Source of the DNA: Ignavibacteria bacterium
GTDB taxonomy: Bacteria > Elusimicrobiota > Endomicrobiia > PHAN01
Reading direction: 5' to 3'
Length of the DNA stretch: 21,912 nucleotides
Assembly: GCA_041694835.1 (NCBI GenBank)
Contig: JBGFRZ010000023.1
Coordinates: 1 to 21,912 of the forward strand
The position numbers and the translations under genes were made by a program. The notes below the pieces were generated by a model. The model was given only the letters and a program-made list of their open reading frames with translations. It had not been told where the DNA came from and did not search any database. Shown piece after piece: positions 1-2,459 of this stretch. The first letter of the stretch is position 1; every line of letters begins with the position of its first letter.

Positions 1-199
1 CCATAATTTGATAACATTAAATTGTTCTGCTATAATTCTACACATTTATATGATACCAAATTTAATAAAAATAGGCAAAAAATTTTAGGGAGTTCCTTGT
101 CGTTGCTCGCGTATGGGCGGGTGGGACAAGGGCAATACCTCTTTCTGGCGGCGCATTTCGCAAGGCGAAATACGAAAAATTGCGGCGGCGAAAAAGCGA

Positions 200-252
200 G
201 GGCGGGGCGGGAATTTATTTTCCCCACACCCCTTTTTCTTCCCGCCCCGCCC
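200..252. repeat. Perfect 14-bp GC-rich inverted repeat with 25-nt spacer
   Basis: GGGCGGGGCGGGAA (200-213) and TTCCCGCCCCGCCC (239-252) are exact reverse complements. Confidence 0.9.
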
Positions 253-273
253 GAGTGTTCCGTTTTTGTTTCA

Positions 274-290
274 GCCGCGCGAAGCGCGGC
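274..290 (+). repeat. GAA-triloop hairpin
   Basis: GCCGCGC-GAA-GCGCGGC, adjacent to the stop codon (293-295, minus strand) of the alternative recombinase tail. Confidence 0.85.
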
Positions 291-292
291 AA

Positions 293-519
293 TCAATCAG
301 GATTTTGCTCAAAATGGGTTCGCACTTCGTTCAGTAATTGCGACCAATCTAAGCATAGCGAATTTTGCGGGCAGTTTGTTTGCTCGCTCGCCGCGTCTTC
401 GGCGGGTGCGGAGTTTATCCGACCTCTGGCGGACTCGCATTTTTCCTTGTATTTCGGCACAAAATCAAACGGACGGACAAAATCAAAAATCAGCTTTCTG
501 TCCAGCGGGCGGCGGTTCG
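293..519 (-). other. Inverted, start-less copy of the recombinase 3' end with an alternative C-terminus; attP-like site
   Basis: The reverse complement of 341-519 aligns ungapped to 2076-2254 (165/179 identical). It encodes NRRPLDRKLIFDFVRPFDFVPKYKEKCESARGRINSAPAEDAASEQTNCPQNSLCLDWS, then diverges to QLLNEVRTHFEQNPD* instead of GWSDLN*. Confidence 0.9.
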
Positions 520-520
520 G

Positions 521-535
521 GGCGGCGAAGCCGCC
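521..535 (+). repeat. GAA-triloop hairpin at the boundary of the inverted copy
   Basis: GGCGGC-GAA-GCCGCC begins at 521, just after homology to the recombinase ends at 519. Confidence 0.85.
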
Positions 536-596
536 AGAGCAAAAACACACCATTAAGAAATTTATTGAAATGTTTTTGCTTTCCAATTTTTTCCGC

Positions 597-619
597 GTGT
601 CCCGATGAAATCGGAACAC
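597..619 (+). repeat. Imperfect palindrome with GAA loop
   Basis: GTGT-C-CCGAT-GAA-ATCGG-A-ACAC; the core resembles the CCCGAT..ATCGGG palindromes at 8070 and 13735. Confidence 0.7.
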
Positions 620-649
620 TACGAAGCCAGTTTTTTAATCCCGCGCTTT

Positions 650-666
650 TTCCGCCGAAGGCGGAA
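650..666 (+). repeat. GAA-triloop hairpin upstream of the recombinase RBS
   Basis: TTCCGCC-GAA-GGCGGAA; the same CCGCCGAAGGCGG core recurs inside the recombinase gene at 2190-2202. Confidence 0.85.
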
Positions 667-706
667 TGGCCAAAGGCGACTTATTAAAGTTAAGGAGTAA
701 AACACT

Positions 707-2275
707 ATGAAGGCAAAATATTTTCTTTACGCTCGCAAATCAACGGAAGACGAAGAAAGACAGGTTATGTCCGTTGAAGCGCAACTTACAGAGTTTGCGG
801 ATTTTGCCAAAAGAGAAAACATTGATATTGCCGAACAGTTTATTGAAAGCAAAAGCGCAAAGAAGCCCGGCCGAGAAATTTTTAACGAAATGATGCAGAA
901 AATCTACGAGAGCAAAGAGCCAGTCGGAATTTTAGCGTGGTACCCCGACAGGTTAGCAAGAAACAGCGTTGACGGCGGACAAGTGATTTATTTGATAGAC
1001 ATCGGCAAGATCGTTTCTTTGCGCTTTCCCACTTTTTGGTTTGAACCAACTCCGCAAGGGCTTTTTATGCTTCAAGTCGCCTTTGGCCAATCAAAATATT
1101 ATTCCGACAATTTGTCGGAAAATGTTAAGCGCGGGATTAGGCAAAAACTCAGGCGTGGCGAATGGCCCGGCCTTGCGCCGTTTGGCTATGTGAACAATCC
1201 AAAAACAAGAACGATTGAGCCAGACCCGACCAAAGCCAGAGTTATCAAAAAAGCATTTGAGGAATATGCGCAAGGCCTCCACACTTTACTTTCGCTTGGA
1301 GAACGTCTGAGTTTTTGGGGCGTGGTGAGCGGCACCGGAAAACCGCTTTGTAAAGCGACTTTGCAACGGATGCTAACAAACAAAGTTTATCTCGGCTTAA
1401 TCGTTCACAACGGCGAAACTTACGAGGGCGGTTTTCCGGCAATTGTTTCCAGAGCGACTTTTGAGAAAGTGCAGGAAGTGTTAAAGAACCGAGCCAAGCC
1501 GCACCATTCCAAAAAGCGGCATTACTTTCCGTTCACCGGACTTTTAACTTGCGGCGAGTGCGGCGCGGCTATTACCGCTCAATGGGCGCACGGCAACGGC
1601 GGAACATACCGCTATTATCGTTGCACCAAGCGACTTGGCTCGTGTTCGCAAAAATATTTAAGAGAGGATTTGCTGGTTGAGCAGTTGAAAGACAAAATCT
1701 CAAAAGTCGCTCTTTGTGAAGACTGGAAAGAAAAAATGCTGGCAAAAGTGGAAGTATGGGAAAAGGAAAATATCCAGTCTTCGCAATCTTTCGCCCAAAA
1801 TTTGGAAAAAGAAATCAAGGAAACGGAACAAAAACTTGATAAATTGGTAAACGCCTTTTTGGACGGAAGCATTGAAAAGGAAACTTACCTTGCCAAAAAG
1901 GACGAACTTATCAAAACAAAAACAGACCTCAACAAAAGAAGGGCTGATTTTGGGCGAAATGGAAACAATTGGATTGAACCATTGAAAGAGTGGATTTTGT
2001 CCACTCACCACGCTGAAAAACTGACTTCGTCAAACGATTTTGATGAAATCAAATCGTTTGCGGAAAAAATTGGAACGAACCGCCGCCTGATGGACAGAAA
2101 ACTGATTTTTGATTTTCAAAAGCCCTTTGATTTTGTGCCGAAATACAAGGAAAAATGCGAGTTCGCCAGAGGTCGGATAAACTCCGCACCCGCCGAAGGC
2201 GGGGCGAGCGAGCAAACAAACTGCCCGCAAAATTCGCTATGTTTAGATTGGTCGGGGTGGTCAGATTTGAACTGA
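707..2275 (+). CDS. Large serine recombinase / integrase (resolvase catalytic domain, recombinase domain, zinc ribbon, coiled coil), 522 aa
   Basis: N-terminal YARKST (catalytic Ser), DRLARN motif, YLG in the recombinase domain, CGECG...YYRC...C zinc ribbon, coiled coil LEKEIKETEQKLDKL. RBS TAAGGAG at 691-697. The final codons (WSGWSDLN*) are the antisense of a tRNA 3' end and T-arm. Confidence 0.95.
   Translation: MKAKYFLYARKSTEDEERQVMSVEAQLTEFADFAKRENIDIAEQFIESKSAKKPGREIFNEMMQKIYESKEPVGILAWYPDRLARNSVDGGQVIYLIDIGKIVSLRFPTFWFEPTPQGLFMLQVAFGQSKYYSDNLSENVKRGIRQKLRRGEWPGLAPFGYVNNPKTRTIEPDPTKARVIKKAFEEYAQGLHTLLSLGERLSFWGVVSGTGKPLCKATLQRMLTNKVYLGLIVHNGETYEGGFPAIVSRATFEKVQEVLKNRAKPHHSKKRHYFPFTGLLTCGECGAAITAQWAHGNGGTYRYYRCTKRLGSCSQKYLREDLLVEQLKDKISKVALCEDWKEKMLAKVEVWEKENIQSSQSFAQNLEKEIKETEQKLDKLVNAFLDGSIEKETYLAKKDELIKTKTDLNKRRADFGRNGNNWIEPLKEWILSTHHAEKLTSSNDFDEIKSFAEKIGTNRRLMDRKLIFDFQKPFDFVPKYKEKCEFARGRINSAPAEGGASEQTNCPQNSLCLDWSGWSDLN
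2076..2254 (+). repeat. Right arm of the 179-bp inverted repeat (partner 341-519), ending at the att core TGGTCG
   Basis: Manual ungapped alignment with 14 mismatches; identity stops exactly after TGGTCG. Confidence 0.9.
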
Positions 2276-2281
2276 CGGCCT

Positions 2282-2387
2282 CCCCGCACCAAAACATCGG
2301 AGCGGTGGGATTTGAACCCACGACCTCATGGTCCCAAACCATGCGCGCTGAACCAACTGCGCTACGCTCCGCAATTTTGGTGCGGGG
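2282..2387. repeat. 13-bp perfect inverted repeats enclosing the inner tRNA
   Basis: CCCCGCACCAAAA (2282-2294) and TTTTGGTGCGGGG (2375-2387), each 3 nt from the inner acceptor stem. Confidence 0.9.
2297..2371 (-). tRNA. tRNA-Pro (anticodon UGG), CCA not encoded
   Basis: CGGAGCG-TA-GCGC-AGTTGGTTCA-GCGC-G-CATGG-TTTGGGA-CCATG-AGGTC-GTGGG-TTCAAAT-CCCAC-CGCTCCG-A: all four stems pair perfectly; anticodon at 2336-2334. Confidence 0.95.
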
Positions 2388-2406
2388 CTGACCCTAAACC
2401 AGATGA

Positions 2407-2459
2407 GCTACCCCCCGAACTATGAGAGGGTGTAGCATTACTTTTCCGCTACCCCCCGA
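2407..2459. repeat. 12-bp direct repeat of the outer tRNA 5' end
   Basis: GCTACCCCCCGA at 2407-2418 and 2448-2459, with a near-complementary AGGGTGTAGC (2427-2436) between them. Confidence 0.85.

What the first reader, a model, noticed from the sequence alone, without database searches (positions are those of the whole stretch)
293..2275. Serine recombinase enclosed by inverted copies of its own 3' end: candidate self-inverting switch that swaps its C-terminus
Seen: 341-519 is an ungapped inverted copy of 2076-2254 (165/179 nt; 52/59 aa, frame open). Both copies end at TGGTCG, the antisense of the tRNA end CGACCA. The gene currently ends ...LDWS-GWSDLN* (tRNA-encoded), whereas the upstream copy continues ...LDWS-QLLNEVRTHFEQNPD*. 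Established: some integrases carry attP inside their own 3' end, so integration changes the tail, and the displaced tail then lies at the far end of the element in direct orientation without the gene-side arm. Here a complete site with both arms sits about 190 bp upstream of the start codon, inverted. Inference: recombination between the repeats would flip about 1.9 kb. This would give a 531-aa protein with the long tail, keep the tRNA's CGACCA intact, and turn the gene from convergent with the tRNA transcript to co-directional downstream of it. That could be a phase switch for integrase activity, stability or directionality. Alternatively, an mRNA starting upstream of 341 would pair its 5' UTR with its own 3' end.
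Basis: partly seen in the sequence, partly recalled or inferred. Interest (0 to 1): 0.85.

Follow-up and report, generated by a model that had tools for sequence, protein, structure and literature searches.

The report
Integrase island with mirrored spare attachment-site
The recombinase gene belongs to a widespread family of small mobile DNA islands that insert at the tips of tRNA genes and always keep a second, mirror-image copy of their own docking site next to the gene; what that spare copy is for remains unproven.

Summary
In detail: 341-519 is an inverted copy of 2076-2254 (165 of 179 nt), and it continues into a different, conserved C-terminal tail.

It is not a one-off. The same layout occurs in 129 loci, 124 of them among 160 related loci fetched from many phyla. 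The layout reads: host | displaced tail - cargo - inverted complete site (tail', core, arm') - integrase - arm | tRNA. Twenty-seven complete islands measure 3.1-10.7 kb. The upstream copy is therefore the island's second, intact attP plus the gene's 3' end.

It is closest to its own gene, 92% against at most 84% for any other element. Mismatches are about half as frequent within 60 nt of the core.

Flipping is geometrically possible but not shown. In chromosomal contigs the integrase almost always abuts the host. Tail-bearing integrases sat on contigs over 10 kb in 0 of 35 cases, against 33 of 82 tail-less ones. One contig (L072) carries both junction types, and one pair (L108/L171) suggests gene conversion between the arms. 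Source reads were not available.

This scan has noted the same architecture at least eight times on other DNA. I found no description of it in the papers searched.

The targeted "tRNA end" belongs to a tRNA-Pro gene that is itself interrupted by a second, intact tRNA-Pro.

The parts
8..36 (+). Promoter-like site (TTGATA-17-TATAAT with TG) pointing through the spare site towards the integrase gene
   Evidence: 11 of 12 matches. This is a consensus match only. No promoter-like site was found between 520 and 706.
78..292 (-). Sequence downstream of the spare tail (T' extension), with G+C-rich hairpins at 200-252 and about 272-290. It is the 3' untranslated part of the duplicated gene end.
   Evidence: Window 78-716 aligns at 82% with the matching region of the complete island L202. 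Inverted pair 200-213/239-252 is 14/14. In complete relatives this part is repeated, inverted, at the far end of the island.
293..340 (-). Spare tail: 15 codons (QLLNEVRTHFEQNPD) plus a stop. This is the P' half of the spare attP.
   Evidence: The motif is conserved in 84 of 101 visible upstream copies. Codon-periodic conservation with a near-invariant CGA-AC. GAAC lies at offset 20 from the core in 60 of 87 loci.
341..346 (.). Core of the spare site (CGACCA on the + strand)
   Evidence: Similarity between the two copies ends here.
341..519 (-). Spare arm A': inverted copy of the last 59 codons of the integrase before the core
   Evidence: 165 of 179 nt match. 10 of the 14 differences lie in the 50 nt furthest from the core.
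520..706 (.). Spacer between the spare arm and the start codon. It contains a 61-nt insertion (520-580) and a further 16-nt repeat piece (581-596).
   Evidence: I5, I8. The spacer is 187 nt here; the median over 129 loci is 145 nt and the minimum 14 nt.
707..2275 (+). Large serine recombinase gene, 522 aa. Its last 6 codons and stop are read from the antisense of the tRNA.
   Evidence: YARKST at residues 8-13; in the 72-sequence alignment (first sequence P0001, from L131) these positions are nearly invariant.
2076..2254 (+). Arm A: the integrase's own 3' end up to the crossover core TGGTCG (2249-2254). This is the island/host junction.
   Evidence: The same junction type, arm-core-tRNA antisense, is seen in 74 loci with a called tRNA.
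2249..2296 (-). 3' part of the outer, interrupted tRNA-Pro(TGG)-like gene: anticodon loop, T arm, acceptor and CCA. This is the B half of the former attB.
   Evidence: It resembles the tRNA-Pro(TGG) of same-family genome G001 (88% over 42 nt), which there sits beside a gene whose product begins like that of the window's gene at 2517.
2297..2371 (-). Intact inner tRNA-Pro(TGG), the only TGG isoacceptor found in the assembly
   Evidence: 71.6 bits; 38 tRNAs found, one Pro-TGG.
2372..2417 (-). 5' part of the outer tRNA-Pro-like gene, followed by 11 nt of which 8 are complementary to the outer anticodon loop
   Evidence: A 13-bp perfect stem (2375-2387 with 2282-2294, lying within inverted pair I2) encloses the inner tRNA.

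Best explanation
The gene is the integrase of a small mobile island that inserted, by serine recombination, at the 3' tip of a tRNA-Pro gene.

In this family the attachment site attP lies inside the integrase's own 3' end, in the order arm, core, conserved tail. The island also carries a second, complete, mirror-image copy of that whole gene end just upstream of the integrase: arm', core, tail', stop and downstream hairpins.

Insertion used the copy inside the gene. The gene therefore now ends in tRNA-encoded residues, its original tail went to the far end of the island (beyond this contig), and the spare copy stayed intact at 293-519. Up to here the account is shown or follows directly from the comparisons.

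The next step is inference. The recombinase reads a GAAC motif in the tRNA T-loop region at offset 15 from the core and the same motif in the tail at offset 20. That is the spacing rule of large serine integrases, and it explains why many different tRNAs are used.

The role of the spare site is also inferred, at roughly one chance in three. It may be a reserve gene end and docking site, kept like the working copy by gene conversion. Rare inversion across the arms, by host homologous recombination or by the integrase, would rejoin it to the integrase body, restore the full-length tail-bearing enzyme and allow excision. On this view it is not a frequently flipping phase switch.

The copy in this window is comparatively decayed: its arms are 92% alike against a family median of 99%.
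For: Architecture:
- An inverted repeat between the integrase 3' end and a site upstream of the gene is present in 5 of 23 class-level homologue loci, including all four with 44-69% identity.
- It is present in 66 of 80 genome-contig loci and 58 of 80 metagenome loci.
- Most loci without it lack the DNA needed to show it. Of the 14 such loci I re-examined, 6 had diverged inverted remnants by tblastn, and at least L053, L137 and L190 had none despite enough flanking DNA.
- Over 129 loci the upstream copy ends in the tail motif in 84 of 101 visible cases. The integrase-attached copy runs into a called tRNA in 74 of 117 visible cases, into other non-tail sequence in 41, and into the tail in 2.
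- Twenty-seven islands are complete, with a second inverted pair (tail plus extension) flanking the cargo, and measure 3,111-10,686 nt.
- One 3.0-kb island in G006 is fully bounded inside a protein gene.

Free or full-length form:
- L131, L143, L161 and L192 have a full-length tail-bearing integrase on contigs of 2-4.7 kb.
- Among 120 database proteins, 36 carry the tail (31 by pattern, 5 more by eye). None of the 35 with a known contig length is on a contig over 10 kb. For tail-less ones the figure is 33 of 82.

The spare site is under constraint:
- Arm/arm' mismatches run at 0.036 per site within 60 nt of the core and 0.060-0.078 per site at 60-139 nt, over 45 imperfect pairs.
- Median arm identity is 98.98%, and 53 of 129 pairs are identical.
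- The arms are more alike than the tails in 18 of 27 islands.

Tail and site logic:
- Tail codons show periodic conservation.
- GAAC lies at offset 20 on the tail side in 60 of 87 loci and at offset 15 on the host side in 65 of 87.

Exchange between the arms:
- L108 and L171 share an identical integrase body (1,554 nt), cargo (6,024 nt), tRNA flank and spare arm. They differ by 15% in the integrase-attached arm, which in L108 equals the spare.
- L072 reads host genes, tRNA-Pro(CGG), core, spare arm, integrase, arm, core, tRNA antisense. Both junction types are therefore on one contig.

No conserved second gene:
- Cargo of nine islands includes a symporter, a P-type ATPase, a sigma factor, small HTH proteins and proteins of unknown family.
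Against: - No molecule with the integrase segment flipped was observed for this window. No run held more than 0.16 of its words, and the four runs laid gave only fragments of relatives.
- Across 129 loci only L072 shows the spare arm on the tRNA. That contig could also reflect two inverted tRNA copies or a mixed population.
- The L108/L171 difference could be an assembly effect, and the two records may come from related data.
- Whether the tail-less enzyme is inactive is untested.
- The structure prediction of a full-length relative gave pLDDT below 50 for residues 455-526.
- Five pairs of islands with shared cargo all had the same cargo orientation.
- The mismatch gradient fits any role that needs integrase binding, such as an operator, equally well.
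- At least L053, L137 and L190 seem to lack the spare copy.
- The 5-bp rule for attP against attB half-sites is recalled from the literature. The passages I read confirm only that the half-sites differ in domain arrangement.
Confidence: 0.6

Rival explanations
1. The spare attP is an operator. The integrase binds it and so controls its own transcription, and perhaps that of the divergent regulator gene, as resolvase does at res. No DNA rearrangement is involved.
For: The spare lies directly upstream of the integrase. In relatives it sits between the integrase and a divergently read HTH_3 gene. The arm'-to-ATG spacer is 40 nt or less in 25 of 129 loci, so the promoter must lie in or beyond the spare there. 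In the window the only promoter-like site aimed at the gene is at 8-36, upstream of the spare. Mismatches are depleted in the 60 nt next to the core.
Against: Identity extends far beyond a 50-bp binding site: arms reach 203 nt and tails 628 nt. It also includes the stop codon and downstream hairpins. The promoter scans are consensus matches in organisms whose promoters are not known.
Confidence: 0.2
2. RNA-level control. A transcript starting upstream of 341 carries the antisense of the gene's own last 179 nt in its leader. Leader and 3' end then pair into a long duplex that sets mRNA stability or translation.
For: A promoter-like site at 8-36(+) and none in 520-706. Short arm'-ATG spacers in 25 of 129 loci. 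Near-perfect complementarity over 90-200 nt in most relatives.
Against: There are no RNA data. It does not explain why the spare keeps the tail, the stop codon and a core matching the tRNA end. It also does not explain why mismatches are rarer near the core than further in.
Confidence: 0.1
3. The upstream copy in this window is only the dead remnant of a second, related recombinase gene from another insertion.
For: Arm identity here is 92.2%, one of the 18 of 129 loci below 93%. The 14 differences show no excess at third codon positions (3, 6 and 5 at positions 1, 2 and 3). The same genome holds a dead stub of a related island at tRNA-Pro(GGG).
Against: The position, orientation and extent of the copy are the same as in 128 other loci. 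It is closer to its own gene (92%) than to any other sampled arm (at most 84.4%). The flanking region 78-716 is collinear with the complete island L202.
Confidence: 0.04
4. The two repeats are the terminal inverted repeats of a 1.9-kb insertion-sequence-like element that consists of the recombinase gene alone.
For: The repeats bracket exactly one gene.
Against: In 27 complete relatives the island extends 1.1-8.2 kb beyond the upstream repeat to a displaced tail in direct orientation. The right repeat lacks the tail that the left one has.
Confidence: 0.02
5. Assembly artefact: a fold-back at a contig end.
For: The repeat lies 340 nt from a contig end. Many relatives' contigs also end near the repeats.
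Against: The arms differ at 14 positions and are separated by 1,556 nt of unique sequence. The layout also recurs inside long contigs from many independent assemblies.
Confidence: 0.02

Closest known systems
Dehalococcoides ssrA-specific genomic islands with the CcrB-like serine integrase DsiB (McMurdie et al. 2011, PMC3146451; passages read)
   Same: A large serine recombinase gene always overlaps the island/host junction at its 3' end, so its stop codon comes from host or neighbouring DNA. The authors suggest the gene may be fully functional only on the circular form. The target is the 3' end of a small structured-RNA gene, and islands occur in tandem.
   Different: The word 'inverted' does not occur in that paper's main text; supplements were not seen. 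No internal mirrored attP is described. Those islands have a conserved multi-gene integration module (dsiA, recF-like, parB-like), whereas the islands here share only the integrase and often a small HTH gene.
Phage-type large serine integrases (Bxb1, phiC31, A118/LI; model in PMC5499577, passages read)
   Same: Domain set. Short asymmetric sites. Different placement of a recognition motif on P-type and B-type half-sites, which the GAAC offsets of 20 and 15 resemble.
   Different: Those systems have one attP outside the integrase gene and a separate directionality factor. Here attP is inside the gene, there is a second inverted attP, and no conserved second gene was seen in the small islands examined. 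Activity was not tested.
SSV1-type 'suicidal' archaeal integrases (review PMC8371274; seen only in search listings; content recalled)
   Same: attP lies within the integrase gene, so integration disrupts the gene, and an intact gene exists only on the free form.
   Different: Those are tyrosine recombinases and the gene is split into two large parts. Here only a 15-residue tail is exchanged, and a spare intact 3' end is kept next to the gene.
Hin/Gin-type invertible segments and intragenic invertons (recalled, not read)
   Same: A serine recombinase gene lies between inverted sites. Gin- and shufflon-type inversion swaps C-terminal coding ends.
   Different: Those use small serine (or tyrosine) invertases and 26-bp sites with an enhancer, and both orientations are readily found in populations. 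Here one orientation dominates: 2 of 117 loci have the tail on the integrase-attached copy.
Yeast 2-micron circle with FLP and its inverted repeats (recalled)
   Same: On my reading the free circle carries two long inverted repeats, each holding a recombination site, which divide it into two segments, one of them encoding the recombinase.
   Different: That is a tyrosine recombinase on a replicating plasmid, and inversion serves copy-number amplification. No replication gene was found in the nine islands scanned here.

Membership tests
Large serine recombinases (serine integrases) | N-terminal resolvase-type catalytic domain | tested here: met
   PF00239 at residues 6-153, E=2.7e-19. YARKST at residues 8-13; in the 72-sequence alignment (first sequence P0001, from L131) these positions are nearly invariant. 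That the serine is the nucleophile is recalled.
Large serine recombinases (serine integrases) | Recombinase domain followed by a zinc ribbon with an embedded coiled coil | tested here: met
   PF07508 at 174-262 and PF13408 at 275-331. A close relative is predicted to have long helices at 338-385 and 391-414.
Large serine recombinases (serine integrases) | Catalyses attP x attB recombination at a 2-bp crossover | not testable with these tools
   Only junction sequences are available. Similarity between the copies ends at TGGTCG.
tRNA/tmRNA-targeting islands with attP inside the integrase 3' end (DsiB type) | The integrase reading frame crosses the island/host junction | tested here: met
   The gene ends 21 nt into tRNA-antisense sequence. 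The same holds in 74 loci with a called tRNA.
tRNA/tmRNA-targeting islands with attP inside the integrase 3' end (DsiB type) | The displaced gene end and a repeat of the core lie at the far end of the island, in direct orientation | tested here: inconclusive
   The window ends before the far end. A tail-like 35-nt piece followed by CGA and unrelated DNA lies on contig C52, but linkage is not shown. The feature is met in 27 complete relatives and in G006.
Invertible DNA switches (Hin/Gin-like, invertons) | Inverted recombination sites flank the segment | tested here: met
   Cores at 341-346 and 2249-2254 are in inverted orientation.
Invertible DNA switches (Hin/Gin-like, invertons) | Both orientations occur in populations or among close relatives | tested here: not met
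   The integrase-attached copy carries the tail in 2 of 117 visible loci. Only L072 has the spare arm on the tRNA. Tail-bearing proteins are on contigs over 10 kb in 0 of 35 cases. The source reads were not available, so absence in this population is not shown.
Insertion sequences with terminal inverted repeats | The repeats are the ends of the mobile unit | tested here: not met
   Complete relatives extend beyond the upstream repeat to a displaced tail.

The most novel reading that the evidence does not exclude
The mirrored gene end is the working part of a directionality control that needs no separate factor. Integration cuts the conserved tail off the integrase and so freezes the island. 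The long, near-identical arms then let the host's homologous recombination occasionally flip the 1.9-kb integrase segment onto the spare tail. That rebuilds the full-length enzyme, which excises the island. It would amount to a stochastic 'suicide and rescue' switch shared by hundreds of islands across bacterial phyla.
Probability: 0.25. Interest if true: 0.85.

Novelty: new variant of a known kind. Interest (0 to 1): 0.7.

Why it matters
Large serine integrases are prized genome-engineering tools because a single protein and two short sites give one-way insertion; reversal normally needs a separate factor.

This family has two unusual features. The attachment site lies inside the enzyme's own coding end, and a second mirrored site is conserved across elements that range from about 57 to 93% protein identity and occur in many phyla. 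That points to a different, self-contained way of controlling or resetting the reaction.

The family also appears to recognise a universal tRNA feature, a GAAC motif in the T-loop region. That would explain how close relatives retarget to Pro, Ala, Gln, Trp, Ser and other tRNAs.

These islands move single cargo genes, including transporters, sigma factors and a methylase-type gene, among uncultivated bacteria such as Patescibacteria and Omnitrophota. They are therefore relevant to gene flow in those groups.

Tried and rejected
**Reads.** The look-up of sequencing runs returned no run holding more than 0.16 of the sampled words. Contigs of X1, X2, X3 and X6 laid on 1-2700 were fragments of relatives 85-99% alike. 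No strand-changing joint was listed. This says nothing about inversion in the source population.

**Structure.** AlphaFold2 on a natural full-length relative (L131 protein, 72-sequence alignment) gave mean pLDDT 67, with residues 455-526 below 50. No inference about where the tail docks was possible, so no fold search was run.

**Contig linkage.** No other contig end of the genome overlaps the window's left end. The HTH, sigma and anti-sigma cargo proteins of L202 have no match in the own genome.

**Cargo inversion.** Five island pairs with shared cargo all had the same orientation, and two of the pairs are probably the same sequence filed twice. L131's cargo has no homologue among the fetched loci, so its orientation is not informative.

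**L072's missing partner.** No arm-tail junction of that element was found in its genome.

**Independent translation of the spare.** There is no consistent start codon in four relatives; L025 and L027 have an in-frame stop just upstream of the homology. I dropped the idea without a systematic test.

**Dyad symmetry of attP.** ATTG-GTCG-CAAT around the core was seen by eye only. I did not establish a conserved motif on the arm side beyond A.AGT at about 10-13 nt before the core.

**Nested tRNA in relatives.** The 5' outer part matched nothing in any fetched locus.

**Literature.** Searches found no description of an internal inverted attP in serine-integrase islands. Only open-access text is covered, and supplements are closed.

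**Earlier notes of this scan.** Look-ups by place and by words returned nothing.
Full report
**1. The observation**

The window is an entire 21,912-nt contig of a 1.9-Mb, 89-contig assembly.

Positions 341-519 and 2076-2254 are ungapped inverted copies: 179 nt, 92%, BLASTN E=1.3e-69. They differ at 14 bases and at 7 of 59 residues. A further 16 of 16 match (581-596 with 2060-2075) shows that the homology runs on behind a 61-nt insertion in the left copy.

The gene at 707-2275(+) is a 522-aa large serine recombinase with Resolvase, Recombinase and Zn_ribbon_recom domains. Similarity between the two copies stops at TGGTCG/CGACCA. Beyond it the gene reads GWSDLN-stop from tRNA-antisense DNA, whereas the upstream copy reads QLLNEVRTHFEQNPD-stop.

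**2. The 'tRNA end' is unusual**

ARAGORN and Rfam call only tRNA-Pro(TGG) at 2297-2371(-). The 48 nt between that tRNA and the gene (2249-2296) are the anticodon loop, T arm, acceptor strand and CCA of a second tRNA. Its 5' part lies on the other side of the called tRNA, at 2372-2417.

When a script removes the inner tRNA plus 11+3, 10+4 or 9+5 flanking bases, ARAGORN calls an 80-nt tRNA-Pro(TGG) spanning 2417-2249. The whole 170 nt folds with the outer acceptor stem, a long perfect stem and the inner cloverleaf elements, at z=-5.9.

The outer 3' part resembles the tRNA-Pro(TGG) of same-family genome G001 (88% over 42 nt). That tRNA sits beside a gene whose product begins like that of the window's gene at 2517. 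The inner tRNA resembles the tRNA-Pro(TGG) of other families (up to 86%). It is the only TGG isoacceptor among 38 tRNAs in the assembly.

So the island sits at the tip of a native tRNA-Pro gene that has itself been interrupted by an 89-nt insert supplying a replacement tRNA-Pro. I found no second example among the fetched loci and have no mechanism for it.

**3. The inverted copy is a conserved architecture**

- In the same class, 19 of 122 genomes had a match at E<=1e-30. The four closest homologue loci (44-69% identity) and one more distant locus have an inverted repeat of 102-133 nt at 89-100% identity between the gene's 3' end and a site just upstream. That is 5 of 23 loci.
- In each of the four closest, the upstream copy continues into a tail like the window's: SLLNEARTYYEH.., CFLNEVRTFFEQ, CLLNDIRTWF.., TLYEKIRTEFQR.
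- The 80 best loci from genome contigs (57-93% identity) come from records titled Patescibacteria, Omnitrophota, Saccharibacteria, Gammaproteobacteria, Bacteroidales, Planctomycetia, Actinomycetota and others. The repeat is present in 66 of them.
- It is present in 58 of the 80 best metagenome contigs.
- Of the 14 genome-contig loci without it, 10 have under 100 nt upstream and 2 lack the gene's 3' end. L104 has a diverged inverted remnant and L053 has none.
- I re-examined 14 loci without the repeat from both sets. Six had diverged remnants by tblastn (33-54% residue identity). At least L053, L137 and L190 had none despite enough flanking DNA.

**4. Tallies over the 129 loci with the repeat**

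| Feature | Count |
|---|---|
| Outer side of the upstream copy visible | 101 of 129 |
| ...of those, showing the tail motif | 84 of 101 |
| Outer side of the integrase-attached copy visible | 117 of 129 |
| ...running into a called tRNA | 74 |
| ...running into other non-tail sequence | 41 |
| ...running into the tail | 2 (L121, L161) |

- At least six of the 17 upstream copies scored 'other' show the tail further out; the repeat alignment had stopped at a contig end.
- The called tRNAs are Pro 50, Ala 7, Gln 5, Trp 4, Ser 2 and one each of six others.
- Arm identity has a median of 98.98%, and 53 of 129 pairs are identical. The window's 92.2% falls among the 18 loci below 93%.

**5. Whole islands**

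Where enough upstream DNA exists, a second inverted pair abuts the spare arm. It consists of the tail plus 100-600 nt of downstream sequence and is repeated, inverted, at the far end of the island.

Twenty-seven islands are complete in this sense and measure 3,111-10,686 nt. Their order is: host | core | displaced tail (direct with the gene) - cargo - tail'(inverted) | core | arm'(inverted) - spacer - integrase - arm | core | host.

A 3.0-kb example in G006 is bounded on both sides inside a protein-coding gene and carries one 288-aa cargo ORF.

Cargo differs from island to island. Examples are a sodium:solute symporter, a P-type ATPase, an ECF-type sigma factor, TPR and unknown proteins, and often a small HTH_3 protein read divergently from the integrase. 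I saw no second conserved gene in the nine islands examined.

Window 78-716 is collinear (82%) with the matching part of the complete island L202. The contig therefore breaks roughly where that island's HTH gene would begin.

**6. Free or full-length forms exist, but not in long chromosomal contigs**

- L131 (4.7 kb) has a 526-aa integrase with the tail. The cargo is flanked by inverted copies of the tail extension, and both contig ends lie at the repeats.
- L143 and L192 are 2.0-2.5-kb contigs whose repeats run through the core into the tail on both sides. L161 has the tail on the gene.
- Among the 120 best database proteins found with the C-terminal third of the L131 protein, 36 end in the tail (31 by pattern, 5 more by eye).
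- None of the 35 tail-bearing proteins with a recorded contig length is on a contig longer than 9,366 nt. Of the 82 tail-less ones, 33 are on contigs over 10 kb, up to 635,771 nt.
- I read this as follows. The tail-bearing gene is the form on the excised circle, or on unresolved short pieces. The integrated form almost always has the gene cut at the core.

**7. What the sites look like**

- On the tail side a GAAC starts 20 nt from the end of shared sequence in 60 of 87 loci, and a second GAAC starts at 9 nt in 33.
- On the host side GAAC starts at 15 nt in 65 of 87 loci. There it is the antisense of the tRNA T-loop region.
- A 5-bp outward shift of one recognition motif in attP relative to attB half-sites is, as I recall, the rule proposed for large serine integrases. 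The passages I read confirm only that P-type and B-type half-sites hold the protein domains differently.
- The near-invariant CGA-ACN (Arg-Thr) of the tail is therefore probably a DNA motif.
- The surrounding codons (L, L, N, F, E) are conserved at first and second positions and looser at the third, as expected for a selected peptide.

**8. Is the spare site functional?**

- In 45 imperfect, ungapped arm pairs, mismatches run at 0.036 per site in the 60 nt next to the core and 0.060-0.078 per site at 60-139 nt. In the window, 10 of the 14 differences lie in the 50 nt furthest from the core.
- The arms flanking the integrase are more alike than the tails flanking the cargo in 18 of 27 islands (6 the reverse, 3 equal). 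Eight islands differ by 3 points or more, for example 100% against 89.9% in L108. These loci are not independent.
- L108 and L171 have identical integrase bodies (1,554 nt), cargo (6,024 nt), tRNA flank and spare arm. The integrase-attached arm in L108 equals the spare. In L171 its inner half differs by 15% and fits the family consensus better (F.F..PF rather than W.W..EY). Gene conversion from the spare into the gene is the simplest reading; an assembly effect is not excluded.
- L072 shows host housekeeping-type ORFs, a complete tRNA-Pro(CGG), core, spare arm (antisense), integrase, arm, core, and then the same tRNA in antisense up to the contig end. The two arms differ at four positions. This needs either two inverted tRNA copies or a population holding both orientations. 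No arm-tail junction of that element was in its genome.

**9. How it most likely works**

Shown:
- The gene is a large serine recombinase.
- It sits at an island/tRNA junction, and the crossover lies inside its 3' end.
- A complete inverted copy of that end is a constant part of the island family.
- The copy evolves in concert with the gene.
- Full-length forms occur on short contigs.

Inferred:
- The free form is a circle with two mirrored attP sites, and integration uses the one in the gene.
- A GAAC motif at offsets 15 and 20 distinguishes the host half-site from the element half-site.

Proposed, at about one chance in three: the spare end serves to rebuild a full-length integrase by rare inversion across the arms.

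The operator and RNA-pairing readings remain open. In 25 of 129 loci the spare arm ends 40 nt or less before the start codon. In the window the only promoter-like site aimed at the gene (8-36, 11 of 12 matches) lies upstream of the spare.

**10. Comparison with what is known**

- The overlap of a CcrB-like serine integrase gene with attL, and the idea that the gene is complete only on the circle, are in print for Dehalococcoides ssrA islands. 'Inverted' does not occur in that paper's main text (PMC3146451).
- Suicidal SSV-type integrases share the logic but are tyrosine enzymes (recalled).
- Five full-text searches gave no description of an internal mirrored attP. Subscription journals and supplements were not covered.
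- Earlier notes of this scan describe the same layout on eight other stretches of DNA, with the same open question. I reached the architecture before reading them. One of them led me to the Dehalococcoides paper.

**11. Verdict**

- Observation: confirmed.
- Interpretation: partly supported. The geometry, the conservation and the co-evolution hold; active switching is not shown and is, at most, rare.
- Novelty: a new variant of a known kind.

This window's copy is an older, partly decayed member whose far end is not assembled. A dead sibling stub lies at tRNA-Pro(GGG) on contig C82, and a tail-like piece lies on C52, flanking a large methylase-domain gene.

Noticed in passing
window 2249-2417 (-): A tRNA inside a tRNA. 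A native-type tRNA-Pro(TGG) gene is interrupted in its anticodon loop by an 89-nt insert that carries an intact, foreign-looking tRNA-Pro(TGG), the only one in the assembly. The insert begins with 8 nt complementary to the old anticodon loop, which gives a 13-bp perfect stem. No second example was found among the fetched loci, and no mechanism is known to me.
   Followed up: partly
G000 contig C82 27947-30341 and contig C52 1-1877 (L018, L019, L215, L216): A dead sibling island. tRNA-Pro(GGG) is followed by a 36-59-nt remnant of an integrase arm and then an open frame of over 750 aa with a DNA methylase domain that runs off the contig. C52 starts with an open frame of 600 aa and then has a 35-nt tail-like piece followed by CGA and unrelated DNA. 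The two contig ends may be one island without an integrase.
   Followed up: partly
window 100-300 and 520-670: Several short G+C-rich hairpins with GAA or similar loops (for example about 272-290, 521-535 and 653-665), and a 14-bp stem at 200-213/239-252. The first group lies where a terminator for the duplicated gene end would be expected. The tool's terminator scan called none.
   Followed up: partly
L121 2430-2723 and 4721-4886: A Bacteroidales relative in which the integrase carries its tail while the spare site is split by an AT-rich insert of about 125 nt between arm' and tail'. The insert ends in a short palindrome at the core. The arms are only 83% alike.
   Followed up: no
L134, L163, L173, L182, L115 (several metagenome and genome loci): Two related integrase genes lie within about 5 kb of each other, suggesting tandem or nested islands at one tRNA.
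   Followed up: no
(contig ranges): In most fetched records the contig ends within a few hundred bases upstream of the integrase, or right at its 3' arm. The repeats, or variation behind them, appear to break short-read assemblies systematically, which may be why the islands have gone unnoticed.
   Followed up: partly
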